A stretch of DNA of 64,000 nt from a virus: the IMG/VR virus record IMGVR_UViG_3300020220_000041. One strand, given 5' to 3'. A model generated the notes under the pieces. That model was given only the letters and a program-made list of their open reading frames with translations, was not told where the DNA came from and ran no database searches. A program made the position numbers and the translations under genes. Shown one piece after another: positions 5,202 through 40,418 of the stretch (position 1 is the stretch's first letter; the number at the start of each line of letters is the position of its first letter).

Positions 5202-5230
5202 CGTGAACCTCTAGCGAAAAGGTGGGTAGA

Positions 5231-5662: not shown

Positions 5663-5818
5663 GGGCTCGTCGTCTGGACAGCCCCCGTGGGTTGGCGCGT
5701 TCGTGTCGGGGCCGACTTCTGGGTTGATCGCGAGAAGGGAGTGCTCGGCCGTGCAACCCAAGGGCCGTGGGTCGAGGGACAGGGTGCCGAGGTGCTGACG
5801 GGCTACGGCTTCTAGGGC

Positions 5819-6002
5819 ACTACGAGAGCGACACGGACTCGCTCGATACCAACTGCCAGCGGAAGTTGGCTCCGACAAGCACCCCTTGAAGTAGGGCGAA
5901 GTCTCGAAGCCCGTTGAACGTGAGGGTGGTGTTGTTGGCCTTGTTGACGCCACTGGCGAACACGAACTGCCGTGTGCCGCCGAGGGTTGCTGAGCTGCTC
6001 GC
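5819..6002 (-). CDS. C-terminal segment of a gene split by the 6003-6476 insertion
   Basis: Directly left of the TIR, the minus strand reads ASSSATLGGTRQFVFASGVNKANNTTLTFNGLRDFALLQGVLVGANFRWQLVSSESVSLS followed by a stop. It is in frame with ORF 6474-6737 if 6003-6476 is removed exactly. Confidence 0.45.
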
Positions 6003-6476: not shown

Positions 6477-6737
6477 AGGAACGGTTGAGCCCACCACGAG
6501 AGAGAGCATCTGACCCGAGTAGATGGGGTTGGCGACCGTGGTGACCTCGGTTGGCCCCGCCGACCCAATCTCGATCGAGATGGCGGTGTTCACCGTCAGA
6601 GCGATGGAGTTGATGCCCGGATCGGGCATGTCTGCGGTGACGAGCGTCGTTCCGTAGATGCTCTCGAGGTAGGAGAGCCTCGAGAGGATCTGAAGGTAGC
6701 CGTGGCGGGGGATGGTCACGAACTCTGGACGCGGCAT
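6474..6737 (-). CDS. N-terminal segment of the gene split by the 6003-6476 element
   Basis: 87-aa ORF (MPRPEFVTIPRHGYLQ...LSLVVGSTVP) whose TGA stop lies inside the right TIR. The ATG is at 6737. Confidence 0.5.
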   Translation of the reverse strand: MPRPEFVTIPRHGYLQILSRLSYLESIYGTTLVTADMPDPGINSIALTVNTAISIEIGSAGPTEVTTVANPIYSGQMLSLVVGSTVP

Positions 6738-6774
6738 TCCGAAGTCCTCTCACCCGAGAGCCGCTATAAGCGGC

Positions 6775-23567: not shown

Positions 23568-23626
23568 AATTCGTCGTTGGCGAGCCTATACACGGAGAGC
23601 GATGAGAACTCTCCGTGGAGATCCCT

Positions 23627-24958
23627 ATGTCTGACCGTCTCCTGCGTGCTGGTCTGATCCGGCTGGCCCATGCCCACCCCGAGTTTCGGGCCGACATTCT
23701 GCCGCTGGTGACGGCCACCTACGAGCAGGACGTGGCGCAAGACGCGGACCCGAACTCCAAGGATCAGTCGAAGGCCGACTACTGGAACGGCCTCGCCCCC
23801 CAGAAGCCTGCGATCGACGAGCCCGCCCTCCCTCCCAAGACGGCAGCGGGGGCCATTGGGCCAAGCCTCGCCAAGATGAAGAACGACACCAATTTGTCGT
23901 TCTCCGATGGTGCAAACACGGTGTTTGCCCATGTCTGGTTCGACACCGGGGTGGCGCAGTACGACCGGGGTGGGGTTGCGCCTGACAGCGGTGAGTGGGA
24001 CGTCATGGTCAGCACCAGTCCCGACCGGTTGAACCTCAACCCTCGCGGAAAGGAGTTGGGCCGTCAGACTTTCCGTTACGCAGAGGCGCGTTCCCGCCCC
24101 ATCGTTCTTGACGCCGCCGAGAAGTACATCGTCACGATGCTTGCGCGGCACCGCTCCAAGACGGCGAAGCTCATGTCCCGTCAGGAGACCCTTCTCCAGA
24201 AGTACATGGAGACGGCGGCTCGGAGCGGGGGACGGGCGGCCACGGGCTGGGACGAGTTGCCCGATTCCGTCCGCAAGGCCCTCCGTGCGGTGAAGGATCA
24301 GGAGACGTTGTGGATGGACGTGGACCGCTGGTTCATGGACAACGCTCCTCCAGGTGGACTCCGTTGGGCCTCGGGCGAGGGTCAGTCGGCGGACGACTAC
24401 TGGAATGGGCTCGAGCCGAAGAAGCCCGCCATCGACGAGCCTGCTCTCCCGCCGAAGCAGGCCGCGTCCAAGACGGCGTTTGAAATCAAGATTGAGTACA
24501 AGGTTCGAGGCGGCCCGTGGCAGACCAAGCAGTTCAGGAATGGCCGTGAGTTCGAGGCTTGGTCCGACAAGATGCAGAAGGTACCCGGCTTCGAGATCAA
24601 CCCCGATTCTGTCGATGGTCACTCCGAGGAGTATCTCCGCAGCCTCCTCGCCAAGAACCAGTCGAAGGCCGCCGCGTGGGAGAACCTCCCGCCGGGATGG
24701 ACGCAGGAGTCGGTTCAGAGCTTCTGGGACAGCCTCACGGGCGACGTGAAGCACAAGGTCACCAAGTGCATGAAGGAGATGGAGGGCAAGGTGGACAACA
24801 CCGGAGCCTTCTGTGGCTCCCTCGGTGCCGCCGTGGGCTACCGGGCGGCCTCGTCTGGGAAGAACGCCTCTCTGTTTCGGAAGGCGGCCATCCGGGTTGC
24901 TCACGAGAACCCCGAGCATCGGGCGGCCATCCTCCCCTCCCTCTCGAAGAAGGCTTGA
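23627..24958 (+). CDS. RLAHAHPE-motif protein with internal DYWNGL...PAIDEPALPPK repeats
   Basis: N-terminus MSDRLLRAGLIRLAHAHPEFRADILPLV and C-terminus AAIRVAHENPEHRAAILPSLSKKA. A ~35-aa internal repeat occurs twice. Confidence 0.55.
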   Translation: MSDRLLRAGLIRLAHAHPEFRADILPLVTATYEQDVAQDADPNSKDQSKADYWNGLAPQKPAIDEPALPPKTAAGAIGPSLAKMKNDTNLSFSDGANTVFAHVWFDTGVAQYDRGGVAPDSGEWDVMVSTSPDRLNLNPRGKELGRQTFRYAEARSRPIVLDAAEKYIVTMLARHRSKTAKLMSRQETLLQKYMETAARSGGRAATGWDELPDSVRKALRAVKDQETLWMDVDRWFMDNAPPGGLRWASGEGQSADDYWNGLEPKKPAIDEPALPPKQAASKTAFEIKIEYKVRGGPWQTKQFRNGREFEAWSDKMQKVPGFEINPDSVDGHSEEYLRSLLAKNQSKAAAWENLPPGWTQESVQSFWDSLTGDVKHKVTKCMKEMEGKVDNTGAFCGSLGAAVGYRAASSGKNASLFRKAAIRVAHENPEHRAAILPSLSKKA

Positions 24959-25025
24959 GGCCCATCCTCATCCCCGGTCGGGGACGAACGTGAACACCTT
25001 GTTGACCCTTTCAGGAGACCACCCC

Positions 25026-25748
25026 ATGTCTGACGCCGCTCTTCGCAAGCAACTGATTCGCCTCGCCCATGCGAACCCCGAGATGCGCCCTCACATCCTC
25101 CCCCTGCTCCGCGAGGCTGGGACGGTGAAGAAGGCACACGGGCCGGTCGCCATCCAGGGGCCGCAGGTGATGCTGTACGCCATCGACGCCGAGAAGAACC
25201 AGTCGAAGTTCTACGAGATGACGGTGGTTCCGTTCGGCACCACCGTGGACCGGGCTCGTCCGACCGTGAAGAAGGACAAGGACTTCCGCCGGATGGGCAT
25301 GGGCGGCTACACGCTCGCGAAGCGGTGGGGCCGTCTCACGGACACGGGCGGCATCTCCGGCCGGTTCGACGGCATGGACGAGTTCTACGACAGCGAGGCG
25401 GCGGCTCTCGGTGCGATGCGGGCCACCAAGGCCGACAAGATGCGTGGGTCGGGTTCGGCCGCGTACAAGGATGTGTCGGACACCCGGGAGTACCCGATCG
25501 GCCTCGGGGCCGCAGGGTTCGGTTGGGGCGGCCAGGCGGCCTGTGCCTACATCCCCGAACTGGCGGAACTCCACACGGCGATCGAAGCCAACCTCAAGAA
25601 CGTCACGCGCCTCAAGGCATACGTGGCGGCCATCGCTCGACGGGACTCGTCGATGGGTAAGAAGCTCGACCTGATGCTCGAGCCGCTCATCGAGCAGATG
25701 TCGTCCATCGACACCTACCTCGAGATGCAACTCTCCGAGTGCCGGTAA
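25026..25748 (+). CDS. WGR-domain protein with N-terminal RLAHANPE motif
   Basis: N-terminus MSDAALRKQLIRLAHANPEMRPHILPLL. SKFYEMTVV...YTLAKRWGRLTDTGG matches the WGR domain. Confidence 0.5.
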   Translation: MSDAALRKQLIRLAHANPEMRPHILPLLREAGTVKKAHGPVAIQGPQVMLYAIDAEKNQSKFYEMTVVPFGTTVDRARPTVKKDKDFRRMGMGGYTLAKRWGRLTDTGGISGRFDGMDEFYDSEAAALGAMRATKADKMRGSGSAAYKDVSDTREYPIGLGAAGFGWGGQAACAYIPELAELHTAIEANLKNVTRLKAYVAAIARRDSSMGKKLDLMLEPLIEQMSSIDTYLEMQLSECR

Positions 25749-25773
25749 GCCGGAACCTCAAGGAACGAACACC

Positions 25774-28700
25774 ATGAAGTCGTCGACCAATCGAGTTGCC
25801 AGTCGGTGGATGCAAGCCGAGAACACGGACGAGCCGTCCGAGTCTGTCGGTGACGTGTCCCCCGGTGCCTTCGTGGACCTCATGGCGTTCTTCCAGGCGG
25901 TCGCGGCCTACCGTGCGCTGAAAGGAGACGAGGACCCCCAGACGCGGCGTGCGGCTCCCCTGGTTCGTCGTTTCCAGAGCGATCTGGTGGCGGGAGCGAA
26001 CCGGTACTTCGCACCCCTGACCGACGACACGGCCTTCGCCGGGTTGCGGAATGAGGTTCGGACGCTGACTCGGGGGACTCGTGGTCTCGACCACGCCTCC
26101 GAGCAAGCGGCGGCTCTCCGGAAGATTCTGTGGACCCTGCATCCGAAGCCGCAGGTGGTCCGCGAGGTGTTCTCGGACTCGCGTTCCTACACGGCGGTGA
26201 TGCGTCTGGCGGCCTTGGCCGCCACCGACTCTGCGGGAAGCCTGCTGAACAGCGTGGCGTCCCTCACCCCGGCCTCCCGGCTTCAACTGACCCGGAAGTG
26301 GATCCGTGACGCGGCGGAGGCGGCCAACGTGGCCCCCTCCAAGGTGGAGACGGTGCTGTCGGATGCGGAGAACGCTCGCCACCTGGGTGAGGATCTCCAC
26401 ACGGTCGAAGTCCAGTTGGCGACTGCGGACCCGGTGTCCCAGCGTGCCGCCGACCTCCAGGTCGAGAAGCAAGCCATCATCGACCAGATCGAGAAGGTGG
26501 TCGCGGACAGCCCCTCTCCGGCGGTGGTGTTGTCGGCGGCGGCCTCGGCTACGACACAGCCCCAGGACTACGCCACGGCCACGGCGAAGCGGTCCAGGCT
26601 CTCGCCAGACCAAGAGCGGGCGATGATGGCCCGTGGGAAGGCGATCATCGCGGCGGGTGCGGGTTCTGGAAAGACCGCAACCCTGGCCTCGAAGGTGGCC
26701 TACCACGTCAACGAACTTGGCGTCCCTCCTGGAGCGGTCATCGCGACCTCGTTCTCCCGGAAGTCGGCCGCTGAGCTTCGGCGGCGGATTGCCAAGTACG
26801 GGGCCGACATCCCGGACTCGGCGAGCACAGGGTTCGGCACCACTCACTCGGTCGCGGGCAAGCTCCTCCGGGAGTATGGCGGCGGTGGCCGGAATGGGAT
26901 GAAGAGCTACCAGCAGACCGACCTGGTTCGGTTGGCGATGGAGCAGGTCCAGATGGTCGGACCTGGTGTCGCGCCTCCGCCTCCCACGAGTCTGTTCGAC
27001 GTGTCCTCGGACGCCCCGGTCGGCATCAAGTTCCGCGATGCCATCCAGATGGCCTTCGATCGCCGCCACAAGCTCGACCCCTGGTCGAAGGGGTTCATCG
27101 AGTCGTTCTACAACCCGAGCGACCAGTGGTACGCCCGGACGATGCGGGCCACGGGGAACCTGACGAATCCGCATGGGCTGTCCGACAAGCAGCGTGAGAT
27201 CGTCAAGAAGGTCTTCGGGCGGTTGGGCATCAACTACTCGCCGACCACGGACCCCGGCCTGGCTCCCGCGCAGACCCAGCCCGCTCCTCGAGTGGCGGCC
27301 AAGGACAAGAACAAGGGGCTCCGCGAGAAGTACAAGTTCTTCTCCCAGCCCGCGAACGAGTGGTTCAACCTCGGCCTCGAACTGGTCGAGGAGGACGGTC
27401 AGGGCAACAAAAAGCCCATCCCGACCGGGTTCTTCAAGAACGCCATCTCCAAGTTCAAGGGTCGGGCGGTGTCGCCCTCCGAGGCTTGGGCGCTCTCCAA
27501 CGGGTCCCCCGAGGCGGCGGTGTACGCGGCCTATGAGTGGCTGAAGGGGTCGAAGGGCGAGACGGACTTCCAGGGTCTCGGCGACTTCGACGACGTGCTC
27601 CTCGACGTGTCGAAGATGCTCCTGTCGTCTCCTCGGGTGAGGCAGCAGGTCCAGTCGCGGTTCAAGGTGGCCCTCGTGGACGAGGCCCAGGATCTCAACC
27701 GGGCACAGCACCTCATGTTCGGCCTCATCACCGGGTTCGTGGACCCGGCGAAGGTGCCCAACATCGCCACCGCGAAAAAGATGGGCGAACTCGCCAAGGA
27801 TGACGGCTCGATGACGGCCGACACCTACTGCTTCATCGGCGACGACAAGCAGTGCGTGGAAGCCAATTCCTTGGTTGAGACTCAGAATGGGCCTCGACGT
27901 GTCGGAGACCTCGCTCCTGGCGATGAGGTACTTGCCTACCGCAATGGGAAGGTGCTTCTGCAGGCTGTACGCCATGTCGTCCCCTCGTCCTGGACATGGG
28001 GCTACAAAGTCACGATGGAGTCTGGGCAAACGCTGACGATGAGCCCCAACCACAAGCTCTGGGCAACCGAGCCTCAGACCGAAGATGGTCAGGTGGCCGT
28101 GTACCTGATGTATCGAAAGGACATGGGGTTCCGCGTTGGGATCACCAACAAGGGCAAGGTGGGCTCCGAGGAGGACTACCTGAACTCTTACGGGGGTCGA
28201 GTCTTCCTGGAGAAGGCCGAACGTCTGTGGGTTCTGGACATCTGCTCTAGCCGGGAGGAGGCTCTGCTGACAGAGACGGATCTCTCCCTGACCTACGGTA
28301 TCCCCACCACAGTGTTCAACGGGGAACACCGTGATCTCAATCAGGATCGGATCAACACCATCTTCCAGAAGCATGGGAAGAATGGAGGCCGCCTGTTGGA
28401 GGAGCGAAACCTCTCTTTTGATCTGCCCCATTGGATGAGCCAGAGCTACACAAAGCATGGCCGGGACCGGCACACTCTTCAGTTCTTGGCCCACAGCACG
28501 AAGGGCTCTCAGGTCGCGATGGAGTGGGTGGGTGACAAGTTCGACAAGGTGTTGCAGGATGTGAGCTTCAACATCACGGGTGAGCGCCGTCGGCTACGGC
28601 GGTGGTTCGGAAACTACCGTGAGGGCCTCGCTCATGCCGAGGAGGTGGCTCGTCGCACGGGTGCCAATCTGTCCTACCGGATGGCTACCCCCGAAGGAAC

Positions 28701-30306
28701 ATTGCGGGAAACGACCGCATCCGGGTTGTTCGTCGGAATGTCCATTCCCGTGCTCGATCAAGAGAACGAAACGATCGCTCTCGATCGAGTTGCCTGCATT
28801 GAACGGGTGGACGGCAGCTTCATCGATCTCGATGTGTTGGATGCCAGCAACTTCTTCGCCAACGGCATCCTGACTTCCAACAGCATCTACGAGTTCCGTG
28901 CGGCGGACCCCGAGGCGTTCATCGACATGAGCGAACTCGTGGCGGGTGGGGCCGGGTTCAAGACCGAGGTGCTGAAGACCAACTACCGGTCGGGGCAGTT
29001 GATCGTGGAGGCGGCCAACCGGCTCATCTCCTACAACACCAAGCAGATCCCGATGACCTGTGCCGCGAACCCACAGCGCGTGGACCGGGGTGGCATCGAG
29101 GCGGTCAACTTCGCTCCGGTCGAAGGTCGGGACATGAGTGCCCCGGCCGAGTGGCTCGCCACCTCCATCGCCGAGACGATGGAGGAAGGACGTGCGGGGG
29201 CCAAGGGCTACGACGCCTTCGGGGTGGGGCTGCGGTCCAACGCCGAGGCATACACCTACGGCATCGAGCTTCTGAAGAAGGGCATCCCGTTCCGCTCCAA
29301 GGCCAACTTCTTCGGCGACCCGACCACCAAGGCGCTGTTGCACTGGCTCACCATCGCCGATGAGGGTGTTGGTGGGAGTGTGGACCGGGTCAACGAGGCG
29401 GTACTGGGTGCCCGCAAGGCTCCAGCGTCGAAGCTCGGGGACAAGTTCGAGGAGATCCTGACCCAGCGGGCCACCGGGAACTACCTGACCTGGCTTCAGG
29501 ACAACTGGACCGAGGTGTACGGCTCTCGGGGCGACTGGGCGATGCTGGTTCGGTCCTTCGTGGACAACCTGCTGGCGGTCGCCGGGATGAAGGGCGGAGC
29601 CTCCGAACAGGTGCTCGAGACGATCCTCGACCTCACGGGGCACGACGGTCGGTCGGTCCGCCAGGTGCTCGTCGACCGGGTGTCCGAGGATGAGGAGGCC
29701 ATCGCCGAGCTTCGGGCCGAGTCCCCCACGGGCACAGTCACGGACGAGGAGATCGAGTCGATGGCGTTCGCGCCCATCGCTCCTCTGAAGGGTCTGTTGG
29801 GTGCTCGGGCGGACCTCAGCGAGGCGATGAAGTACGTCCGGCAGCTTCAGTCCGCGAACGAGAAGCTGGCTGCGGACGACGACCCCGACAACAAGAAGGC
29901 TCGTGAGCCCGCCGTCACGCTGGGCACGATGCACTCCTGGAAGGGCCTCGAAGTCGAGAACATGTACATCCCCTTCGTCGGCGGCCGGTTCCCCCGGTTC
30001 GATGCGGACGAGGAGGATCTGGCCTCCGAGCGTCGTCTCGCCTACGTGGCGGTGACTCGCGGTGAGAACCGGGTCGTGGTGATGAACATCCCGACGGTGC
30101 GTCGGACGAAGCAGGGAGCCGTCACCCAGACGAGCCAGTTCGTCGGCGAACTGTGCATCCCTCCGGCGGTGGACAGTCCATTCAGCGCGGGAGATGAGGA
30201 CGCCGAGCAGGAAGTGCTGCGGCTCGAGGAGCGGATGAACCGAACCGCGTCCTACCTCTCGGACGAAGCCATCTCGGCCTACCTCTCGGGCCAAAAGGGG
30301 CGGTGA
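25774..30306 (+). CDS. UvrD/PcrA-like superfamily 1 helicase with ~280-aa N-terminal extension, interrupted by an intein
   Basis: Motif I AIIAAGAGSGKTATL, motif II ALVDEAQDLN, and motif III split as GDDKQ|C...N|SIYEFRAAD. Total 1510 aa. Confidence 0.7.
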   Translation: MKSSTNRVASRWMQAENTDEPSESVGDVSPGAFVDLMAFFQAVAAYRALKGDEDPQTRRAAPLVRRFQSDLVAGANRYFAPLTDDTAFAGLRNEVRTLTRGTRGLDHASEQAAALRKILWTLHPKPQVVREVFSDSRSYTAVMRLAALAATDSAGSLLNSVASLTPASRLQLTRKWIRDAAEAANVAPSKVETVLSDAENARHLGEDLHTVEVQLATADPVSQRAADLQVEKQAIIDQIEKVVADSPSPAVVLSAAASATTQPQDYATATAKRSRLSPDQERAMMARGKAIIAAGAGSGKTATLASKVAYHVNELGVPPGAVIATSFSRKSAAELRRRIAKYGADIPDSASTGFGTTHSVAGKLLREYGGGGRNGMKSYQQTDLVRLAMEQVQMVGPGVAPPPPTSLFDVSSDAPVGIKFRDAIQMAFDRRHKLDPWSKGFIESFYNPSDQWYARTMRATGNLTNPHGLSDKQREIVKKVFGRLGINYSPTTDPGLAPAQTQPAPRVAAKDKNKGLREKYKFFSQPANEWFNLGLELVEEDGQGNKKPIPTGFFKNAISKFKGRAVSPSEAWALSNGSPEAAVYAAYEWLKGSKGETDFQGLGDFDDVLLDVSKMLLSSPRVRQQVQSRFKVALVDEAQDLNRAQHLMFGLITGFVDPAKVPNIATAKKMGELAKDDGSMTADTYCFIGDDKQCVEANSLVETQNGPRRVGDLAPGDEVLAYRNGKVLLQAVRHVVPSSWTWGYKVTMESGQTLTMSPNHKLWATEPQTEDGQVAVYLMYRKDMGFRVGITNKGKVGSEEDYLNSYGGRVFLEKAERLWVLDICSSREEALLTETDLSLTYGIPTTVFNGEHRDLNQDRINTIFQKHGKNGGRLLEERNLSFDLPHWMSQSYTKHGRDRHTLQFLAHSTKGSQVAMEWVGDKFDKVLQDVSFNITGERRRLRRWFGNYREGLAHAEEVARRTGANLSYRMATPEGTLRETTASGLFVGMSIPVLDQENETIALDRVACIERVDGSFIDLDVLDASNFFANGILTSNSIYEFRAADPEAFIDMSELVAGGAGFKTEVLKTNYRSGQLIVEAANRLISYNTKQIPMTCAANPQRVDRGGIEAVNFAPVEGRDMSAPAEWLATSIAETMEEGRAGAKGYDAFGVGLRSNAEAYTYGIELLKKGIPFRSKANFFGDPTTKALLHWLTIADEGVGGSVDRVNEAVLGARKAPASKLGDKFEEILTQRATGNYLTWLQDNWTEVYGSRGDWAMLVRSFVDNLLAVAGMKGGASEQVLETILDLTGHDGRSVRQVLVDRVSEDEEAIAELRAESPTGTVTDEEIESMAFAPIAPLKGLLGARADLSEAMKYVRQLQSANEKLAADDDPDNKKAREPAVTLGTMHSWKGLEVENMYIPFVGGRFPRFDADEEDLASERRLAYVAVTRGENRVVVMNIPTVRRTKQGAVTQTSQFVGELCIPPAVDSPFSAGDEDAEQEVLRLEERMNRTASYLSDEAISAYLSGQKGR
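27853..28881 (+). other. Intein (343 aa: Cys1 ... terminal Asn, +1 Ser) inside UvrD motif III
   Basis: The host motif GDDxQSIYxFRGA is broken between Q and S. The insert starts CVEANS and ends ANGILTSN. Its size allows an endonuclease domain. Confidence 0.6.
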
Positions 30307-31130
30307 TGCCAACCTACGTTCAACTCACCCGCGAAGAGTTCGAGGACTGGCTCAACGGCCTGGCCCATCGTTGGCGGCTGAAGCCGGGCACGGTGGGCAT
30401 CTACGAAGTCCCGATGTCGGAGACGGTGTCGGTCGAAATCTCGTCCTCGATGACGGGACGCGATGACGTGATGAACCGTGCTCAAGCGTCGATGGGCTGT
30501 CGGCTCGTCAGCATGATCACGGGGTTCACGCTCAACAAGAAGGCGCAGGAACAGTCCCACGTCAAGCGGACGATCAACTGGCGGGACAACCTGAAGAAGG
30601 TCTACCAGCGGATGGTGGACGCCTACGAGAAGTCCTCGGCCTTCTACGACGCTCTCGCCGAGATCCGCGACCGTGACGCCTACAAGCGGGATTGGATGGA
30701 GCGCATCGAGGAGGTCCCGGGTTGGCAGTCCAACACGTTCCTCTCCGACATGCACTCGCGGCTGGCCGACAACGGCATCATGACTCTCCGTCAGCGAGAT
30801 GCGGTGGAGAGGGCTTTGAGCCGCCCCCAGGCTGCCCCCGCACCCGCCCCGGCTCCCACACCTCCGTCGTCGGGAGTAGACTCGGTGCTTCTGGCCCAAG
30901 TCCGCGCCCTGTACGTGGTGGCGAAGGGCCGTGGGAATCAGTGGGCGATGGACTTCGCGAAGTCCGTCGGCGAGTTGATCAAGGCGGGCCGGAGCCTCTC
31001 GAGCAAGCAGCGGGACGTGCTCGACCGCCTGCTGAACGAGAACCGTGGGGAAGTGGAACGGTACGTGGACACCCACCCGCAGGTCGCACGGATCGCCTCT
31101 CGTCACCTGGCGCAGTTGGGAGTTCTGTGA
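30303..31130 (+). CDS. Hypothetical protein
   Basis: 275-aa ORF. Its stop overlaps the next start as TGATG. Confidence 0.5.
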   Translation: MMPTYVQLTREEFEDWLNGLAHRWRLKPGTVGIYEVPMSETVSVEISSSMTGRDDVMNRAQASMGCRLVSMITGFTLNKKAQEQSHVKRTINWRDNLKKVYQRMVDAYEKSSAFYDALAEIRDRDAYKRDWMERIEEVPGWQSNTFLSDMHSRLADNGIMTLRQRDAVERALSRPQAAPAPAPAPTPPSSGVDSVLLAQVRALYVVAKGRGNQWAMDFAKSVGELIKAGRSLSSKQRDVLDRLLNENRGEVERYVDTHPQVARIASRHLAQLGVL

Positions 31131-34100
31131 TGACGACCTCCGCTTCACGAAATCGCATGGTTCGGCGGATCGCTGACACCTACCTGGGTTCCATCCGGGT
31201 CGCTGAGGAGGAGGCTCCATTCGAGGACGACTCGGCCGACGAGCCGCTCCCTACTCGACCCATGTTCTCGTCGAGTGCCCGCCAGAAGTTGTTCCGAGCC
31301 TTTGGTCCCAGAGGCATCGCGTTCTTCGATCTCTACGACGCCCTCCGCCAGGTCGCCGTAGGGGGTCTGCCTCCGGAGAGTGGCTTCGTCCATGAGTTCC
31401 GGGCGTTGTCTCGCATCGTGGCTCGGTTCCTCACAACGGAGCCGACCAAGGGCAAGCTCGCGGATATCGCCTCCAGGCTACGCCCGTTGTTCGACCGCAT
31501 CGACAGCGGAAGGGCCAGTCGCGCCGTGTTCCGCACAGCGGCAGGTCTGTACGCGACTCTCGTACAGGAGGTGGCTTCCGACCGCGACGTCCACCTCGCA
31601 CCGATGTCCGGCGGTGCTCCGGGCTGGGTGGCGTTCAAGCTCATGTCCGCCCGCGAGGAGAAACTCGACGAGTTGATGCGGAACGACCCCGAGGCGTTCA
31701 ACGTCATCCAGCGGTCGAGGTCGATCGTCCGACAGATCGATCGGTCCATCGAGAAGGAAATCTCCGATGGCGGCCTCATCCCCAGCAAGAAGGAGATCCT
31801 CGGCCGTCCTGTGCAGACGGGGAAGGATCCTGTATCGGGCGACGAGTACGTGTTCGACACCGACGGAGAGATGCTCTCCATCCCCTCCTTCATCGAGAAG
31901 CGTCGCAAGGCTCTCGAATCCCAGGAAGCGGCCCGCCGAGTATTCCCCCGCAACGTGGCGGACTTGAGGTCGCTGAACGACGAGGAACTGGACGCCTTCA
32001 CGGTGGGGAGCATGGAGTACGTCGCTCTCACCGACGACAAGGCCAAGTCAGGTGGGCTCACGCGCATCTACCCGGCGAAGCGCACCGTGGACGGCGACCT
32101 GGTGGTTGTCGATGGTCGGTTCAAGGGCATCTACATCGACGACCTCGTGAACCGTGCGGGTCGGATGATCGAAGGTGTGGCCTTCGACGTCGATCCGAAG
32201 AACGGCGTGCCTGTCCCGATGGAGACACGAAACCCGGATGGCACCCCCAACGTTCGCTCGAGCCGCGAGCCTTACGTCACGGTCGGCACCAAGGGGTCGC
32301 TCTACCTTCGCATCCCAAGCGGACACGGGTTCACGGCGGCCCGCAACGCCCTGACGGCTCTTTCCAAGAGCATCCCGTCCCTTCAATACGTGGAGGGGTC
32401 GCGGAAGTCGGCCTTCACGTTTGAGCCGAAGGACTTCGCCACGGTTCGCGAGGCTCTGGGTGGGCTTGCGCTCTCCACGGCAGCCACGAAGCTGCTCCGG
32501 GACTTCTTCTCGGGCCTCGCCAAGCACGAACTCGCCATCTCCAGCGAGAACCTGCAACTCTTCGACACCGACCGTATCGGCGGCTTCAAGCCGGGGCGTC
32601 GCCTCTACAACAAGCAGAAGGAGGCGATGGCCTGGCTTGAGTCCCGTGGGCACTCGGGCGTCGTCGCCCTTGACACCGGCCTGGGCAAGACCGCGACCAC
32701 CATCGCCTCGATGCAGAAGATCATCCGGGATGGGCTCATCGAGGAGAACCAGCAGTTCCTCTACGTGTGCCCCAAGGCGTTGAAGGGGAATCTCCCGAAG
32801 GAAATCGTCGCGTTCGTCGAGGATCCCGAGACGCTCCTCTCGCGCGTGAAGGTGATGACCTACCAGGAGTTCACTCGAGCCGTCAAAGACGACCCGAACT
32901 TCGCGGACCGCTACGCGGCTGTGTTCTTCGACGAGGCCCAGGCGCTCAAGAACTCGAAGTCCGGTCCAGGTCGGGCTGCGATGGCCCTCCGACACCCGAA
33001 GAAGGTGCTGTTCACGGCGAGCCCCATGGAGAAGTCTCCCATGGAGGTCTTCAACCTCGTCGCCATCACCAACAACATCGACCTGAACACGCGCGAGGGT
33101 GCAGCACAGGCTCGAGCCTTCCGTCGGCGGTTCGCCGAAGAGGTGGGTGGGAAGATCATCGGGATCAAGAACGACCCCGTCACGGCTCGGGATTTCCGCG
33201 TCTGGGTGAAGCGGAACCTCTACTTCGCCGACAAGCGGGACGTGGAGGAGGTCGTTCTCCCGCAACTCCGGTCCCAGACCGTGGCCATCACGATGGACCC
33301 CGAAGTCGAGGCTCGCTACCGCGAGGTGGCCAAGAGCGTCGAAGGGGTGCTCGCTGGGATGGTGGCGAAGTACCGCGACCGTGACCCATCCGCGAAGGAT
33401 CCAGCCATCGAAGCGGCTCGGGTGCGTCTGCGGAAGGAGTTCGGAATCCTGTTTGAACTGGCCAATGCCCCGCAGAAGGCCGTCCCAGGGGCCTCGAACC
33501 CGAAGATGACCCACCTCGTTGACATCCTCGACGAGCGGGTGGGCGCGAATAGACGGACCCTGGTATTCACGGACAGTCCGGACCTTGCGGGCGAAACCGC
33601 AGAGATCCTCTCGACCCGATTCCCCGGGCATAGCGTGGCCGAGTGTCTCGCGCAGTCCATCCGGGAATGGAAGGGCGGCCGGGTGGTCCAGGTCTACAGG
33701 GAGGCCAAGTACACGGATGGCAAGCGGACCTGGCCCAAGAGCGACTGGAAGGTCTACGTCCTCGACCGGATCGTGAGCCCCGATCCCGACTACATCGCCT
33801 GTGTCCTCACATCGACATACGCCGTGGGTCAGAACCTCCAGCAGTTCGACACGGTCGTCCACCTCGACCGCGATGCGTGGAACAACGAGGTGATGAAGCA
33901 GCGCACGGCCCGAGCGTGGCGGAGCGGGCAGCAGCACTCAGTCGAGGAGTACGTGCTCGACGCCGTGTACTCTGACCCGGCCAATGACCGGGACGAGACG
34001 CTCGACCAGATCGTCGCCCACCTCCAGCGGCTCGAGTCCGAGTTGTTCGACCAGGTCATCATCGAGAGCCAGTCGGAAGCCCTCGGGAAGGAGTGGTTCG

Positions 34101-34222
34101 GGATGAAGCGACTCCACTCCTCCTTCGTCGAGTTGAGTCGGCGAATGCTCGAACTCTCGATGTCCCCTTACGCGCAACGTCTTGGGCTCCATGAGGTTCA
34201 GGAAATGGCCCAGAAAGCGTAG
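31130..34222 (+). CDS. SNF2/RAD54-family helicase with long N-terminal region
   Basis: ALDTGLGKTATTIA (motif I), FFDEAQALKN (DEAH box) and YAVGQNLQQFDTVVHLDRDAWNNEVMKQRTARAWRSGQ (motif VI). Confidence 0.7.
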   Translation: MTTSASRNRMVRRIADTYLGSIRVAEEEAPFEDDSADEPLPTRPMFSSSARQKLFRAFGPRGIAFFDLYDALRQVAVGGLPPESGFVHEFRALSRIVARFLTTEPTKGKLADIASRLRPLFDRIDSGRASRAVFRTAAGLYATLVQEVASDRDVHLAPMSGGAPGWVAFKLMSAREEKLDELMRNDPEAFNVIQRSRSIVRQIDRSIEKEISDGGLIPSKKEILGRPVQTGKDPVSGDEYVFDTDGEMLSIPSFIEKRRKALESQEAARRVFPRNVADLRSLNDEELDAFTVGSMEYVALTDDKAKSGGLTRIYPAKRTVDGDLVVVDGRFKGIYIDDLVNRAGRMIEGVAFDVDPKNGVPVPMETRNPDGTPNVRSSREPYVTVGTKGSLYLRIPSGHGFTAARNALTALSKSIPSLQYVEGSRKSAFTFEPKDFATVREALGGLALSTAATKLLRDFFSGLAKHELAISSENLQLFDTDRIGGFKPGRRLYNKQKEAMAWLESRGHSGVVALDTGLGKTATTIASMQKIIRDGLIEENQQFLYVCPKALKGNLPKEIVAFVEDPETLLSRVKVMTYQEFTRAVKDDPNFADRYAAVFFDEAQALKNSKSGPGRAAMALRHPKKVLFTASPMEKSPMEVFNLVAITNNIDLNTREGAAQARAFRRRFAEEVGGKIIGIKNDPVTARDFRVWVKRNLYFADKRDVEEVVLPQLRSQTVAITMDPEVEARYREVAKSVEGVLAGMVAKYRDRDPSAKDPAIEAARVRLRKEFGILFELANAPQKAVPGASNPKMTHLVDILDERVGANRRTLVFTDSPDLAGETAEILSTRFPGHSVAECLAQSIREWKGGRVVQVYREAKYTDGKRTWPKSDWKVYVLDRIVSPDPDYIACVLTSTYAVGQNLQQFDTVVHLDRDAWNNEVMKQRTARAWRSGQQHSVEEYVLDAVYSDPANDRDETLDQIVAHLQRLESELFDQVIIESQSEALGKEWFGMKRLHSSFVELSRRMLELSMSPYAQRLGLHEVQEMAQKA

Positions 34223-35997: not shown

Positions 35998-36500
35998 AGG
36001 GCGGATAACCTACGCAGTTCCGCTGAAATCAGCCGATCTTGGCTTGCGTACTGTGCCTCGAACCCGCTCGCCTTTTCGTCGTCTTCCCGCCACCAGCGAG
36101 GCGCTGGCGAGAACCCGTGCTCATCCGCAATCCACTGCTCCTGACGTTCGGTCGGAGTGGGCCACTCCGTTGCAAGGAGGATGGGTTCCGAGCGTTGGTT
36201 GTCGAGGTTGAGCCAGGGGACAGACTTCAGGATGCCCTCGCCTTTGAAGGGTCGGCGTTTCCCGACTCGGAGGGCCATCCACTTGAGGACCGCATGTTCC
36301 CAGTCGTGGGGGCTGTTGAACCCGAGTTGGAGGGGGCCGTGTCCGTACTTGATGCCCCCTTGCTGAACGAGCCCCTGGAAACGGGGCCGAAGTCCCGTCG
36401 CCAGCACTTCGGACCCATCCCTGAGATGCTTCTCGGCGAAGGCCACCATCTCCCCGAGAGCCGCTTCAGAGCGGCAGGTGAAGGAGAAGCTGTAGCCCAT
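35979..36500 (-). CDS. Hypothetical protein
   Basis: The real part begins [26 protein letters not shown]. Its ATG overlaps the asnS stop as TGATG. Confidence 0.5.
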
Positions 36501-37840
36501 CAGATGCTCCCCGGAGTCCTGGGGTACGGAAGCACGTCGCGGATGTTCGGGACGCCCAGGAGCCACATCAGGATGCGTTCGAGGCCGAGCCCGAACCCAC
36601 CGTGAGGCACCGTGCCGTACCGGCGGAGGTCGATGTAGTGCCGGTAGTCGGACGGGTCGAGCTTGCACCGCTCGATCTGTGCGAGGAGCTTGTCGAGGCG
36701 CTCTTCACGCTGGGAGCCCCCGATGATCTCGCCCACACCGGGCACGAGCAGGTCGAAGCACGCGACCGTCTGACGACCAGGGACACATCCGTCGTTGAGC
36801 CGCATGTAGAACGACTTGTGCTGCGCGGGGTAGTCGGTGACGAACACCGGCCCCTGAAACACGACCTCGGCGATGTACCGCTCGTGCTCCGTCTGGAGGG
36901 GGTGCTCCCACCCAACGGGGTGCTCGAACTTCCGGCCGCTCTCCTCGAGGATTTCGAGGGCGTGCGCGTAGGTGATCCGAGCGAACGGGTCGAAGGAGAG
37001 GGCCACCTTGGCGGACTCCTGGATGGCTCCGGTCACCGAGAGAGCATGGGCACAGGCACGCACCAGTCCCTCGGCCAGGTCCATCACGTCGCCCACGTCC
37101 GCGAAGGCCACCTCGGGCTCGATCATCCAGAACTCGGCCGCATGGCGGGCCGTGTTGCTGTTCTCGGCCCGGAAGGTCGGCCCGAACGTGTAGACCTTCG
37201 AGAAGGCACAGGCGAACGGCTCCACGTCCAACTGGCCGGAGACAGTCAGGTACGCGGGCTGTCCGAAGAACGGCTCATCGTCCGTCTCCTTCTCGTGGAC
37301 GACCCCGAACATCTCACCCGCCCCCTCGCAGTCGGAGGCCGTGAGGATGGGCGTGTGTACCCACATGAACCCCCGCGTGCGGAAGAACTCGTGGATGGCA
37401 GTGGACACGGTGTTCCGAGCGATGAAAACGCGCTGGAACTCCTGCGTGCGGACGCGAAGATGGGGGATCGTCCGGTAGAACTCCGGAGACGCCTCCTTCT
37501 TCTGAACCGGGAAGTCCGAGGCGTCGCAGTCGCCCACGACGGTCACGCCCTCGAGGGTGGCCTTGATCTCGTGGGGCTGCTCGGGGCCTGGAGAGGCCGC
37601 GAACACGCCCGTCACGTCGAGGGCCGCCCCCACACCCAGGCGAGCCCGTAGGGCGTCGTCAGCGGGCGGGGAGAGGACGATCTGGACGGTCTTCTCGGTC
37701 GAGCCGTCGTACAGGTGGATGAACGTGACCTTCTTGGCGAAGCGAGACGTGCGGATCCAGCCCTGGACGCGGACGTGGGCACCTTCGGGAGTGATCCCCG
37801 TGAGCAGGCGGCGCACGGAGATGGGGTCAACGGGAACCAT
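36500..37840 (-). CDS. asnS: Asparaginyl-tRNA synthetase (class II)
   Basis: FRAENSNTARHAAEFWMIEPE, GGSQREER and YGTVPHGGFGLGLERILMWLLGVPNIRDVLPYPR. The N-terminal OB domain starts VRVQGWIRTSR. Confidence 0.8.
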   Translation of the reverse strand: MVPVDPISVRRLLTGITPEGAHVRVQGWIRTSRFAKKVTFIHLYDGSTEKTVQIVLSPPADDALRARLGVGAALDVTGVFAASPGPEQPHEIKATLEGVTVVGDCDASDFPVQKKEASPEFYRTIPHLRVRTQEFQRVFIARNTVSTAIHEFFRTRGFMWVHTPILTASDCEGAGEMFGVVHEKETDDEPFFGQPAYLTVSGQLDVEPFACAFSKVYTFGPTFRAENSNTARHAAEFWMIEPEVAFADVGDVMDLAEGLVRACAHALSVTGAIQESAKVALSFDPFARITYAHALEILEESGRKFEHPVGWEHPLQTEHERYIAEVVFQGPVFVTDYPAQHKSFYMRLNDGCVPGRQTVACFDLLVPGVGEIIGGSQREERLDKLLAQIERCKLDPSDYRHYIDLRRYGTVPHGGFGLGLERILMWLLGVPNIRDVLPYPRTPGSI

Positions 37841-37858
37841 GAAACACCTCAACGCCCA

Positions 37859-39518: not shown

Positions 39519-40418
39519 TCAAGCGGCTTCGGCGTTCTGCTCCTCTTCTTCGTCTTCCGCACCCGCGTTCAGGATGAGGTCAACTGCCTGCTGTGCCGCC
39601 CGAGCGGCCCCAAACACTGCATACTTGTCCCCTCGAAGCACCTTCAACCAGTGGGCCAGGTAGTTCGGGTGTTGCAGATCACCCTCAACTCCGAGATGAG
39701 CACACAGGAAGGCCGCGCCGATTTCGGCCACCAGTTCCTCCATCGCGTAGGCATCCGAGCCGAACCTGTTCTTGAGGTCTCGGTTCAACCTGCCTTCGGC
39801 TCCAGTCCAGTGGAGCGTTTCGTGCGCCCGGGTCGCCAAGTAGTTCTCGATCGTGTGGAACTGCTCGACGTTGGGGAGGCGAATGCAGTCCTCGGCCGGG
39901 GAATAGCAGGCGTGATCACCACCGTGACGGACATCAGCCCCCACAGCTTCGAGTACCGTCATCGCTTCCGTGTGGGTGCCCGCCAGGTGGATCGAAGGGG
40001 CGACTTCCCCCACATCAGCAGGCAGACCTTCTACTTGTTCCCGGTTAAAGACAGTAAAGACGCGGAGGAGCGGGATCTTCTTGCCCGTCTCGACGCCCTC
40101 GACCTTTTCGGGGATGAACTGCCAGTAGACGATCTTCGTGCCCTTCTCGCCCTTGCGGACGTTCGCACCGAGATCCTTGGCCTGGTTGAAGGTGTACCAG
40201 CGGGCGTCGCTGTAGCCCGCGATGGCGAGCAACCAGATGTTGAGGCCGTTGTAGTGCCGACCCGACTTGCCGTTGCGGGGCATGCCGTTGATGCCCATGG
40301 ACTTCCAGGGCTTCGACCACTCCCCGGGGCCGGCTTCGAGGGCCGCGACGATGCGGTCGGTCACGTCCTGGTACCAGTCGTTCTTGGGGGCGGTGGTGGT
40401 CTTGGTGCTGCGGGCCAT
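39519..40418 (-). CDS. ardC: ArdC-like antirestriction protein
   Basis: N-terminal ssDNA-binding region (KPW...NGxxYxGxN...) plus a C-terminal zincin HExxH (ATRAHETLHWTGA). Confidence 0.7.
   Translation of the reverse strand: MARSTKTTTAPKNDWYQDVTDRIVAALEAGPGEWSKPWKSMGINGMPRNGKSGRHYNGLNIWLLAIAGYSDARWYTFNQAKDLGANVRKGEKGTKIVYWQFIPEKVEGVETGKKIPLLRVFTVFNREQVEGLPADVGEVAPSIHLAGTHTEAMTVLEAVGADVRHGGDHACYSPAEDCIRLPNVEQFHTIENYLATRAHETLHWTGAEGRLNRDLKNRFGSDAYAMEELVAEIGAAFLCAHLGVEGDLQHPNYLAHWLKVLRGDKYAVFGAARAAQQAVDLILNAGAEDEEEEQNAEAA

What the first reader, a model, noticed from the sequence alone, without database searches (positions are those of the whole stretch)
27853..28881. Intein inserted in motif III of a 1510-aa UvrD-like helicase
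The helicase motif GDDxQ-SIYxFRGA is interrupted by a 343-aa insert that begins with Cys and ends with Asn, followed by Ser. These are canonical intein junctions. The insert is large enough for a homing endonuclease but lacks an obvious LAGLIDADG pair, so it may carry an HNH or other endonuclease type. The host helicase also has an unexplained ~280-aa N-terminal extension.
Basis: seen in the sequence. Interest (0 to 1): 0.55.

Follow-up and report, generated by a model that had tools for sequence, protein, structure and literature searches.

The report
Mobile intein splitting a phage helicase
The 343-residue insert is a real self-splicing intein sitting in motif III of a UvrD-type helicase from a probable large phage; it belongs to a widespread phage intein family already annotated in SPO1 and phi92-like phages, and its conserved middle domain, presumably the homing nuclease, is of no recognised intein-nuclease type.

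Summary
ORF 25774-30306 (+) encodes a 1510-aa UvrD/PcrA-like helicase. Residues 694-1036 (nt 27853-28881) run Cys...Ser-Asn|Ser and split GDDKQ|SIYEFRAA.

The insert is an intein:
- A family profile hits solved inteins (gp41-1, 7e-16) at both ends only.
- A relative whose flanking helicase sequence is 92-97% identical lacks exactly these 1029 nt. It reads GDDKQ|AIYEFRAA, with Ala at +1.

Among the window and 9 related metagenome loci, 3 carry the intein and 7 do not. The intein has lower GC than the host gene (58% vs 66%) and is more conserved between hosts than the helicase is. This pattern fits a mobile element.

It is not new in kind. Homologous inteins at the same site are annotated in SPO1 gp34.33 and in phi92-like coliphages. 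The family has 906 cluster representatives.

The open question is the central domain (intein aa 74-294). It is not LAGLIDADG or HNH, has no Pfam hit and no confident structural match. Weak but consistent signals point to a divergent GIY-YIG fold, which is unproven. Intein-derived, non-splicing, free-standing copies lie directly downstream of intact UvrD genes.

The parts
25774..30306 (+). Precursor gene: 1510-aa intein-containing UvrD/PcrA-like SF1 helicase (stop codon included)
   Evidence: ORF list. Pfam UvrD-helicase 3.7e-33 and UvrD_C 2.2e-20. PHROG 1967 'DNA helicase' 9.8e-61. The same 1510-aa gene is called on JGI contig Ga0194122_10000445.
25774..26598 (+). N-terminal extension of the helicase (aa 1-275); no known domain
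   Evidence: No Pfam hit at E<=1. Conserved at E 1e-12 to 1e-141 in about 40 orthologous helicases.
26599..27852 (+). N-extein helicase core (aa 276-693). It ends with the first half of motif III, GDDKQ (nt 27838-27852)
   Evidence: Pfam UvrD-helicase match at aa 277-693. Junction sequence.
27853..28881 (+). Intein, 343 aa, class 1 (Cys1 ... Ser342-Asn343)
27853..28071 (+). Hint N-terminal lobe (intein aa 1-73). It holds block A Cys1 (27853-27855) and block B S64-P-N-H67 (28042-28053)
   Evidence: Alignment to the gp41-1 intein and other solved inteins over profile positions 4-78. Cys1 and His67 are invariant in 78/78 members.
28072..28734 (+). Central inserted domain (intein aa 74-294): the putative homing endonuclease plus DNA-binding module, of unrecognised type
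28084..28332 (+). Central subdomain 1 (aa 78-160), beta-beta-alpha-beta-alpha. It carries the near-invariant Y84, M86, R94, G96, R116, E120, W126 and E141. Possibly a divergent GIY-YIG fold
28465..28722 (+). Central subdomain 2 (aa 205-290), a two-layer alpha/beta module. It is absent from the short (275-296 aa) family members. A DNA-binding role is inferred
28735..28881 (+). Hint C-terminal lobe (aa 295-343). It holds block F Asp325 (28825-28827) and block G ...NFFANGILTS-N343 (Asn codon 28879-28881). The penultimate residue is Ser, not His
   Evidence: Alignment to solved inteins over profile positions 276-338. Asn343 is present in 78/78 members, Asp325 in 71/78. The penultimate residue is His in 100 and Ser in 14 of 114 junctions.
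28882..30306 (+). C-extein (aa 1037-1510). It starts with the +1 nucleophile Ser (AGC, 28882-28884) and the second half of motif III, SIYEFRAA
   Evidence: Pfam UvrD_C at aa 1066-1436. Intein-free alleles carry GCC (Ala) at this codon.

Best explanation
Nucleotides 27853-28881 encode a class 1 intein inserted in frame in motif III (GDDKQ|SIYEFRAA) of a UvrD/PcrA-like helicase. The genome is probably that of a large phage.

Inferred splicing mechanism, from the standard class 1 pathway:
1. Cys1 forms a thioester with Gln693.
2. The +1 Ser1037 hydroxyl attacks that thioester.
3. Asn343 cyclises and releases the intein.
4. An O-to-N shift rejoins the helicase as a 1167-aa protein with motif III restored.

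The Hint fold is split by a 221-aa central module. I infer that this module is the homing endonuclease. It would cut intein-free alleles at ...GGCGACGACAAGCAG^GCCATCTACGAGTTC..., and repair from the intein-bearing copy would then spread the intein together with the Ala-to-Ser change at +1.

What is shown:
- The boundaries, the Hint fold and the catalytic residues.
- The natural empty site.
- Patchy distribution among relatives, a composition different from the host gene, and higher conservation than the host.

What is inferred:
- Actual splicing.
- Nuclease activity.
- The type of nuclease, possibly a divergent GIY-YIG fold.
For: Junctions and host:
- Junction residues are as described.
- Pfam places the helicase N- and C-domains on either side of the insert.

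Hint fold:
- The AF2 model has pLDDT 94.6 and pTM 0.90.
- The family profile hits gp41-1 at 7e-16, and also the DnaB, Cdc21, VMA, RadA and RecA inteins. All hits fall on profile positions 4-78 and 276-338 only.

Catalytic residues: Cys1, His67 and Asn343 are present in 78/78 family members, and Asp325 in 71/78.

Empty site:
- L021, from a 166-kb contig, is 97% identical over the last ~190 residues of the N-extein and 94.5% over the first 200 of the C-extein (92% over the whole C-extein). It lacks exactly the 1029 nt.
- Its DNA is identical for 30 nt upstream of the junction.
- In the 30 nt downstream it differs only at the +1 codon (GCC Ala versus AGC Ser) and at one synonymous site.

Mobility:
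- Of the window plus 9 related loci, 3 carry the intein and 7 do not. All 7 empty alleles have Ala at +1 and all 3 occupied alleles have Ser.
- Intein GC is 58% and GC3 72%, against 66% and 86-87% in the exteins.
- The intein is 57-68% identical between hosts whose helicase cores are only 34-62% identical. For example, P0010 shows 68% against 36-38%.

Family size: 906 cluster representatives at E<=1e-3. Most sit at the same site, GDxxQ|C...[HS]N|[SC]IYxFRG.

The central module is a separate functional unit:
- Mini-intein derivatives lack it (P0105, P0111, P0122 and others).
- One member (P0104) has lost Y84, M86, R94, G96, R116, E120 and E141 together while keeping its splicing residues.
- Free-standing ~330-aa derivatives have lost Cys1, the block B His and the terminal His-Asn, but keep the central-domain residues.
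- Three of these (P0076, P0084, P0088) each lie 12-49 nt downstream of an intact 483-499-aa UvrD gene. Where read (L017), that gene has an uninterrupted motif III.
Against: - No experiment shows splicing or DNA cleavage.
- Intein HMM hits for the single sequence are below the curated cut-offs. Pfam Intein_splicing scores 25.3 against 35.8. TIGR01445 scores 18.5 against 24.5.
- The penultimate His, which normally helps Asn cyclisation, is Ser here.
- The central domain could therefore be a DNA-binding or regulatory module, or an inactive nuclease.
- hhalign against phage GIY-YIG homing endonucleases gives prob <1%.
Confidence: 0.9

Rival explanations
1. The intein is real, but its central domain is a degenerate or non-catalytic remnant. 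It might only bind DNA or act as a structural or regulatory insert. The element would then be inherited vertically and no longer home.
For: - No nuclease family is detected by Pfam, PHROGs or NCBIfam.
- Two positions equivalent to canonical GIY-YIG residues are substituted: the YIG Tyr is Arg, and the His/Tyr is Glu. The Asn equivalent is not conserved.
Against: - Y84, M86, R94, G96, R116 and E141 are kept in 77/78 members, E120 in 75/78 and W126 in 78/78, across inteins only 30-90% identical. This indicates purifying selection on a specific site.
- These residues persist in free-standing copies that have lost all splicing residues.
- The intein is distributed patchily among close relatives, including a relative 92-97% identical in the flanking helicase sequence that lacks it.
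- It has a different GC content and is more conserved than its hosts. All of this points to recent movement.
Confidence: 0.25
2. The insert is a splicing-defective Hint-type insertion, because the penultimate His is replaced by Ser. The helicase would then be a pseudogene or a permanently interrupted protein.
For: - The terminus is Ser342-Asn343 instead of His-Asn.
- Single-sequence intein HMM scores are below the gathering thresholds.
Against: - The xSN|S ending recurs in 14 of 114 family junctions. This includes relatives 47-89% identical, such as P0006, P0014, P0016 and P0001, whose ORFs are intact. The variant is therefore maintained, not a one-off lesion.
- All other catalytic residues are intact.
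- The 1510-aa frame is open, and the helicase motifs on both sides are conserved.
- From my own knowledge, unchecked here: natural inteins lacking the penultimate His are known to splice.
Confidence: 0.08
3. The homing nuclease is encoded in another frame or on the antisense strand of the intein DNA, as reported for some actinophage inteins. The in-frame central domain would then be only a spacer.
For: - Long antisense ORFs overlap the intein: 25687..28494 (-) of 935 aa and 28594..30312 (-) of 572 aa.
- Such architectures are described in bioRxiv 10.1101/2025.01.02.630785.
Against: - Neither antisense ORF has any Pfam hit at E<=0.1.
- Both extend far beyond the intein, as expected of shadow ORFs in 64% GC DNA.
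- Other same-strand frames hold only 53-97-aa ORFs.
- The in-frame central domain is strongly conserved at the protein level between GC-rich and AT-rich hosts, including coliphages, SPO1 and Streptococcus phages. That is incompatible with a spacer role.
Confidence: 0.02

Closest known systems
Intein of the UvrD/Rep helicase of phi92-like coliphages (Justusliebigvirus/Phapecoctavirus; e.g. Escherichia phage JohannJBalmer bas62_0080, annotated 'intein-containing UvrD / Rep family helicase precursor')
   Same: - Same insertion site: GDEFQ|C...SHN|CIYQFRG.
- Same length (346 against 343 aa) and the same three-part architecture.
- 38-40% identity over the full length, at E 1e-67 to 4e-73.

   Different: - The host helicase is much smaller (924 aa) and lacks the N-terminal extension.
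- The penultimate residue is His and the +1 residue is Cys.
- The host genome is AT-rich.
- As far as I found, it is annotated only, with no biochemical study.
Bacillus phage SPO1 gp34.33 intein (and the CampHawk homologue), annotated in the genome records
   Same: - Same site: GDDDQ|C...THN|SMYSFRGA, with +1 Ser.
- Same central subdomain 1 motifs: VYLM..FRVG..R..W.L..E.

   Different: - It is a short form of 275 aa lacking central subdomain 2.
- It has a 'CQPAG' N-terminus.
- It is only about 26% identical.
gp41-1 split intein (PDB 6qaz/6riz): the closest solved splicing domain
   Same: - Profile E-value 7e-16.
   Different: - gp41-1 is a naturally split mini-intein with no inserted domain.
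- Its host is a DnaB-like helicase, not a UvrD-type helicase.
GIY-YIG nuclease domain (UvrC N-terminal domain, PDB 1ycz/1yd6; I-TevI catalytic domain)
   Same: - Same beta-beta-alpha-beta-alpha order of elements.
- Y84-x9-R94-x-G96 has the spacing of GIY...YIG.
- R116-x3-E120 has the spacing of R39-x3-Y43.
- 'REEALLTE(141)..L...Y..P' parallels UvrC 'EREAFILE(76)..L...Y.P'.
- Foldseek prob is up to 0.63, with 23% identity. hhalign gives P 3.3e-4, and 0 of 200 shuffles reach that score.

   Different: - The YIG Tyr is an invariant Arg. The His/Tyr is Glu. The Asn is not conserved.
- An insertion of about 12 residues lies between beta2 and alpha1.
- No Pfam GIY-YIG hit: only 1 of 22 members, at E 3.1.
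- hhalign against phage homing GIY-YIG domains gives prob <1%.
- Reviews state that GIY-YIG domains are not known inside inteins (PMC1564403, PMC2677866).
Yeast HO endonuclease, a free-standing nuclease derived from an intein (mentioned in PMC3384342)
   Same: The free-standing ~330-aa relatives (P0076, P0084, P0088) keep the Hint scaffold and the central domain. They have lost the splicing residues.
   Different: - HO carries a LAGLIDADG nuclease and is a domesticated eukaryotic gene.
- The copies found here are viral or metagenomic and sit next to their presumed target gene.
- This comparison concerns relatives, not the window's own intein.

Membership tests
Class 1 intein (Hint superfamily) | Hint (Hedgehog/intein) fold formed by the N- and C-terminal parts of the insert | tested here: met
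   [not shown]
Class 1 intein (Hint superfamily) | Block A: Cys, Ser or Thr as the first residue | tested here: met
   Cys1 is codon TGC at 27853-27855. It is present in 78/78 family members.
Class 1 intein (Hint superfamily) | Block B: T-x-x-H | tested here: met
   The motif is S64-P-N-H67. His is present in 78/78 members. Position 64 is Ser in 59 and Thr in 19.
Class 1 intein (Hint superfamily) | Blocks F and G: conserved Asp, terminal Asn, preceded by His | tested here: inconclusive
   Asp325 (71/78) and Asn343 (78/78) are present. The penultimate residue is Ser, not His. Ser occurs in 14 of 114 family junctions. The penultimate His is usual but not obligatory (my own knowledge, unchecked here).
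Class 1 intein (Hint superfamily) | A Ser, Thr or Cys nucleophile at the first C-extein position | tested here: met
   Ser1037 is codon AGC at 28882-28884. Intein-free alleles have Ala at this position.
Class 1 intein (Hint superfamily) | In-frame insertion whose precise removal restores a conserved host motif, with intein-free alleles existing | tested here: met
   L021 reads GDDKQ|AIYEFRAA with no insert. Six further related loci and 18 helicases with inteins elsewhere also have an uninterrupted motif III.
Class 1 intein (Hint superfamily) | Protein splicing actually occurs | not testable with these tools
   This needs expression of the precursor and detection of the ~128-kDa ligated helicase and the ~38-kDa intein.
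UvrD/Rep/PcrA SF1A helicase (host protein) | UvrD N-terminal and C-terminal helicase domains scoring above the curated thresholds | tested here: met
   PF00580 scores 115.8 bits (cut-off 23) and PF13361 scores 73.8 bits (cut-off 25.6). The protein is far below the NCBIfam equivalog cut-offs for PcrA, Rep and UvrD. It is therefore a family member, not an orthologue of those enzymes.
LAGLIDADG homing endonuclease | One or two LAGLIDADG helices forming an alpha-beta-beta-alpha-beta-beta-alpha core | tested here: not met
   [not shown]
HNH homing endonuclease | Beta-beta-alpha-metal motif with His, Asn and His | tested here: not met
   No Pfam HNH hit. No specific fold match.
GIY-YIG nuclease superfamily | Three-stranded sheet with flanking helices (beta-beta-alpha-beta-alpha) | tested here: inconclusive
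   [not shown]
GIY-YIG nuclease superfamily | Catalytic set: Tyr (GIY), Tyr (YIG), Arg, His/Tyr, Glu and Asn | tested here: inconclusive
   Y84, G96, R116 and E141 are conserved at the expected spacing. However, the YIG Tyr is Arg94, the His/Tyr is Glu120, and the Asn equivalent is not conserved. The R116/E120 correspondence is inferred from spacing and the predicted helix, not from the hhalign alignment.
GIY-YIG nuclease superfamily | Significant sequence or profile similarity to family members | tested here: inconclusive
   The Pfam GIY-YIG model hits 1 of 22 members, at E 3.1. hhalign against 10 phage homing GIY-YIG domains gives prob 0.8%. Against 3 UvrC domains it gives prob 38% and P 3.3e-4. 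Its score is 24.8, against a shuffled mean of 10.3 (sd 2.4, max 23.1, 0 of 200 reaching it).

The most novel reading that the evidence does not exclude
The conserved central module of this intein family could be a previously unrecognised class of intein-borne homing endonuclease. The family has at least 906 cluster representatives in phage UvrD helicases, plus members in a DNA methyltransferase and in at least one other, unidentified host protein.

The most likely form is a divergent GIY-YIG-fold nuclease with an altered catalytic set (Tyr, Arg, Arg, Glu, Glu). It would be fused in frame inside a Hint domain and able to escape as a free-standing, non-splicing gene beside its target gene. That would be the first in-frame GIY-YIG-type nuclease in inteins.
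Probability: 0.4. Interest if true: 0.65.

Novelty: new member of a known kind. Interest (0 to 1): 0.42.

Why it matters
As an intein in a helicase ATPase motif, this is ordinary. Inteins favour exactly such sites, and this family is already annotated at this site in SPO1 and phi92-like phages.

Three things give it some value:

1. The data contain an occupied allele and an empty allele whose flanking helicase sequence is 92-97% identical, differing at the junction only by the intein and the +1 Ala/Ser codon. That defines the homing site to the nucleotide and provides a ready substrate for a cleavage assay.

2. The family's middle domain is strongly conserved but matches none of the nuclease types known in inteins. 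If it is a nuclease, possibly GIY-YIG-derived, it would add a new intein-associated endonuclease class and a new long-target DNA-cutting scaffold.

3. Related inteins occupy four different sites of the same helicase, occur two to four per gene, decay to mini-inteins, and give rise to free-standing copies next to UvrD genes. That is a compact natural series for studying the intein life cycle in phages.

Tried and rejected
- **Near-identical DNA in phages.** A megablast search of the phage collection found nothing.
- **Word-indexed protein search.** It was almost blind to this family, returning 1 hit for the intein and 3 for the 7-sequence profile. For I-TevI it returned only close fragments. 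The exhaustive HMMER search was what revealed the family.
- **Structure prediction with phage-collection sequences.** Trimmed hits from the representative search were accepted.
- **afdb50 fold library.** It was unavailable.
- **Central domain against sequence libraries.** Pfam, PHROGs and NCBIfam gave nothing. A profile search against PDB sequences gave nothing.
- **LAGLIDADG and HNH.** Both were rejected.
- **Out-of-frame or antisense nuclease.** Rejected.
- **Second copy of the intein in the window.** None found.
- **Viral-contig scan for close helicase relatives.** It found none. The metagenome scan did.
- **GIY-YIG membership.** It could be neither established nor excluded.
Full report
**1. 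The observation**

ORF 25774..30306 (+) encodes 1510 aa. Nucleotides 27853-28881 translate to 343 aa, starting CVEANSLVETQNG and ending NFFANGILTSN. The N-terminal flank is ...TYCFIGDDKQ and the C-terminal flank is SIYEFRAADPEAF....

Pfam places a UvrD N-terminal helicase domain at aa 277-693 (3.7e-33). It places the UvrD C-terminal domain at aa 1066-1436 (2.2e-20). Both are above the curated cut-offs. GDxxQ-SIYxFRGA is motif III of UvrD/Rep/PcrA helicases (established knowledge). The description, the coordinates and the 1167-aa predicted product are all correct.

**2. It is an intein**

The single sequence gives only sub-threshold matches to the Hint and intein models, at both ends of the insert. 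It also gives a weak two-part match to the gp41-1 intein.

An exhaustive HMMER search of 1.84 billion representatives found 906 relatives at E<=1e-3. Of these, 441 are at <=1e-10 and 120 at <=1e-30.

A 22-member alignment of full-length relatives (A2) was used as a profile against PDB sequences. It hits gp41-1 at 7e-16 and about 40 further intein, Hedgehog and BIL chains. These include the DnaB, Cdc21, VMA, RadA, RecA and DnaX inteins. All hits fall on profile positions 4-78 and 276-338 only.

The splicing residues are in place:
- Cys1;
- block B, S64-P-N-H67;
- block F, Asp325;
- the terminal Asn343;
- +1 Ser.

Across 78 aligned family members, Cys1, His67 and Asn343 are invariant and Asp325 is present in 71.

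The one departure from the canon is the penultimate residue, which is Ser342 instead of His. Across 114 family junctions the endings are HN|S 73, HN|C 25, SN|S 13, HN|T 2 and SN|C 1. The Ser variant is kept in relatives 47-89% identical whose reading frames are intact, for example P0006, P0014, P0016 and the fragment P0001. I therefore regard it as a tolerated variant and not a lesion.

**3. A natural empty site fixes the boundaries**

A scan of metagenome contigs with the C-extein found nine related loci. In L021, from a 165,875-bp contig, the N-extein (last ~190 residues) is 97% identical. The first 200 C-extein residues are 94.5% identical, and the whole C-extein 92%. The two parts abut directly, and the 1029 nt are simply absent.

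At the DNA level, the 30 nt upstream of the junction are identical. In the 30 nt downstream, the only differences are the +1 codon (GCC Ala in L021, AGC Ser in the window) and one synonymous change.

Six further loci (L023, L025-L029) also lack the intein and read DDKQAIYEFRG. Two loci (L022, L024) carry a 60-64% identical intein and read HN|SIYEFRG. Every empty allele has Ala at +1 and every occupied allele has Ser. The nucleophile codon therefore travels with, or is selected with, the intein.

Eighteen more helicases that carry related inteins at other sites have an uninterrupted motif III.

**4. Signs of mobility**

- The intein is present in 3 of 10 related alleles, counting the window.
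- Its GC content is 58.0% and its GC3 72%. The flanking extein parts have 65.8-65.9% and 86-87%.
- It is more conserved between hosts than the hosts are. Intein identity to 15 orthologues other than the near-identical P0006 is 47-68%. The helicase cores are 34-62% identical and the N-terminal extension 24-35%. For example, P0010 shows 68% against 36-38%, and P0005 shows 66% against 39-42%.

Together these are the expected marks of an element that spreads horizontally by homing. The mechanism itself is inferred.

**5. The family and what is already known**

tblastn against the phage collection found full-length homologues, 38-40% identical at E down to 4e-73. They lie in the UvrD helicase of phi92-like coliphages and relatives.

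In Escherichia phage JohannJBalmer the feature is annotated 'intein-containing UvrD / Rep family helicase precursor'. It sits at the same site, GDEFQ|C...SHN|CIYQFRG. Bacillus phage SPO1 gp34.33, annotated 'apparent intein', and phage CampHawk carry a shorter relative at the same site.

Other relatives sit elsewhere:
- In Vibrio phage RYC the insertion point is shifted by three residues.
- Streptococcus phage Javan558 carries one in an adenine methyltransferase.
- P0002 carries one in another, unidentified host protein.

A survey lists UvrD among bacterial intein hosts (PMC4760082).

Within this helicase clade, related inteins occupy four sites:
- VDE|C..HN|CQDLN;
- DEAQDLNK|C..HN|CQHxMFG;
- the motif III site;
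- AANRLIxHN|C..HN|SKQIPM.

Some proteins hold two to four copies. The 485-kb uncultured phage LR745208 encodes an orthologue of the window's helicase, including the N-terminal extension. Its intein is at the second of these sites, and its motif III is intact.

The element in the window is therefore a new member of a known, annotated family that, as far as I could find, has not been studied biochemically.

**6. The central domain**

Intein residues 74-294 interrupt the Hint fold. The model shows three parts:
- Subdomain 1 is beta-beta-alpha-beta-alpha (E81-88, E92-98, H113-119, E124-131, H134-148).
- A long helix follows (H164-184).
- Subdomain 2 is a two-layer alpha/beta module (E208-288).

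The short family members (SPO1, RYC, Javan558) lack subdomain 2.

Sequence libraries give nothing:
- No Pfam, PHROG or NCBIfam family matches.
- A profile of the domain hits no PDB sequence.

Structure searches give nothing confident either:
- No Foldseek match reaches E<=1e-3.

LAGLIDADG and HNH can be set aside.

The domain is nevertheless under strong constraint. Y84, M86, R94, G96, R116 and E141 are each kept in 77/78 members, E120 in 75/78 and W126 in 78/78.

The single exception is one intein (P0104). It has lost all of Y84, M86, R94, G96, R116, E120 and E141 together while keeping Cys1, His67 and His-Asn. Eight relatives are mini-inteins with the whole domain deleted.

Conversely, free-standing proteins of about 330 aa (P0076, P0079, P0084, P0088, P0097) have lost Cys1, the block B His and the terminal His-Asn. 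They keep the central-domain residues. In all three cases with enough context (P0076, P0084, P0088), the gene lies 12-49 nt downstream of an intact 483-499-aa UvrD helicase gene on the same strand. Where read (L017), that helicase has an uninterrupted motif III, GDCNQAIYSFRGA.

This pattern shows a module that is dispensable for splicing, selected on its own, and associated with UvrD genes even when free-standing. That is what one expects of a homing endonuclease. It is still an inference.

**7. Is subdomain 1 a GIY-YIG fold?**

Evidence for:
- The order of secondary-structure elements fits.
- Y84-x9-R94-x-G96 has the GIY...YIG spacing.
- R116-x3-E120 has the R...H/Y spacing.
- 'REEALLTE141..L...Y..P' parallels UvrC 'EREAFILE76..L...Y.P'. 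The UvrC sequences were taken from PDB alignments.
- The Foldseek hits with the highest probability for this subdomain are the T. maritima UvrC GIY-YIG domain entries (prob 0.47-0.63, 22-23% identity over 79 columns, E 0.26-0.42).
- hhalign of a 78-sequence subdomain profile against three UvrC domains gives prob 38%, P 3.3e-4 and 68-72 aligned columns. The score is 24.8. For 200 column shuffles the mean is 10.3, the sd 2.4 and the maximum 23.1, and none reaches the real score.

Evidence against:
- hhalign against ten phage homing GIY-YIG domains gives prob 0.8%.
- The Pfam GIY-YIG model touches only 1 of 22 members, at E 3.1.
- Two canonical catalytic positions are substituted and the Asn is not conserved.
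- The R116/E120 correspondence rests on spacing and the predicted helix. The hhalign alignment does not pair them that way.

My estimate is about 50-55% that subdomain 1 is a divergent GIY-YIG fold. Membership is not established.

Reviews state that GIY-YIG domains were not known inside inteins (PMC1564403 and PMC2677866). A 2025 survey of actinophage inteins describes LAGLIDADG, HNH, Vsr-like and endonuclease VII-like nucleases only.

**8. Other readings checked**

Long antisense ORFs overlap the intein, but they have no Pfam hit and extend far beyond it, as expected in 64% GC DNA. Other frames hold only short ORFs. The window holds no second copy of the intein.

**9. Host and context**

The N-terminal ~275 aa and the large insert at aa 371-610 have no Pfam match. 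Both are conserved in about 40 orthologues, so they are features of this helicase clade.

The window matches JGI metagenome 3300021092, contig Ga0194122_10000445. Its neighbours include an SNF2 helicase, a class II aminoacyl-tRNA synthetase, an HNH protein and many ORFans.

A large phage is a reasonable but unproven source. The pointers are:
- the PHROG helicase hit;
- the orthologue in a 485-kb uncultured phage;
- the 166-kb related contig.

**10. Verdict**

The finding is real and correctly interpreted. It is a new member of a known phage intein family. The added value lies in three things: the exact empty-site allele, the evidence of ongoing mobility, and the uncharacterised, possibly GIY-YIG-like, central domain shared by the whole family.

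Noticed in passing
P0076/L017 1943-2929; P0088/L030 3340-4392; P0084/L032 4001-5002 and L033 2087-3088: These are free-standing proteins of about 330 aa, homologous to the whole intein. They lack Cys1, the block B His and the terminal His-Asn, but keep the central-domain residues. Each lies 12-49 nt downstream of an intact 483-499-aa UvrD helicase gene. They look like intein-derived free-standing homing genes, analogous to yeast HO.
   Followed up: partly
P0004, P0005, P0007, P0008, P0009; L003 (LR745208) 1619-6844: Helicases of this clade carry two to four related inteins at different conserved sites: VDE|CQD, DEAQDLNK|CQH, motif III, and AANRLIxHN|SKQ. The orthologue in the 485-kb phage has the related intein at motif II and an intact motif III.
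   Followed up: partly
P0105, P0111, P0122, P0124, P0126, P0127, P0135, P0137; P0104: Eight relatives are mini-inteins in which only the two Hint ends remain. One full-length intein (P0104) has lost all the near-invariant central-domain residues together. These are stages of nuclease decay.
   Followed up: partly
L002 (Klebsiella phage KP13-16) 1240-4836: This 1198-aa helicase has the motif III intein. It also has an upstream stretch with a LAGLIDADG-like motif (...LLRGLMDTDGS... near aa 243), suggesting a second intein of a different type in the same gene.
   Followed up: no
L004 (Vibrio phage RYC), L006 (Streptococcus phage Javan558), P0002: These are short 'CQPAG...' relatives of the intein. 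In RYC the insertion point is shifted by three residues (GDKYQQLY|CFRGS). Javan558 carries one in an adenine methyltransferase, and P0002 in another unidentified protein. This is evidence of site switching and host-gene switching.
   Followed up: no
window 23615-24958 (+) and 24813-25748 (+): The two ORFs upstream of the helicase share a repeated motif: LIRLAHAHPEFRADILPLV, AIRVAHENPEHRAAILPSL and LIRLAHANPEMRPHILPLL. The first ORF also repeats DYWNGL.P.KPAIDEPALPPK twice. Neither ORF has a Pfam family apart from a sub-threshold WGR hit in the second.
   Followed up: no
window 36500-37852 (-), 30692-34222 (+), 58956-61031 (+), 50646-51941 (+), 39519-40418 (-): Other notable genes in the window are a class II aminoacyl-tRNA synthetase (tRNA-synt_2), an SNF2-family helicase two genes downstream of the UvrD gene, a flotillin/SPFH protein, an AAA_33 kinase-like protein and an ArdC-N/MPTase-PolyVal protein. 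Most other ORFs have no family.
   Followed up: no
window 28882-28884 versus L021 4001-4003: The +1 codon is AGC (Ser) in all three intein-bearing alleles and GCC (Ala) in all seven empty alleles. The splicing nucleophile is therefore not pre-existing in the target and must be co-converted or selected together with the intein.
   Followed up: partly
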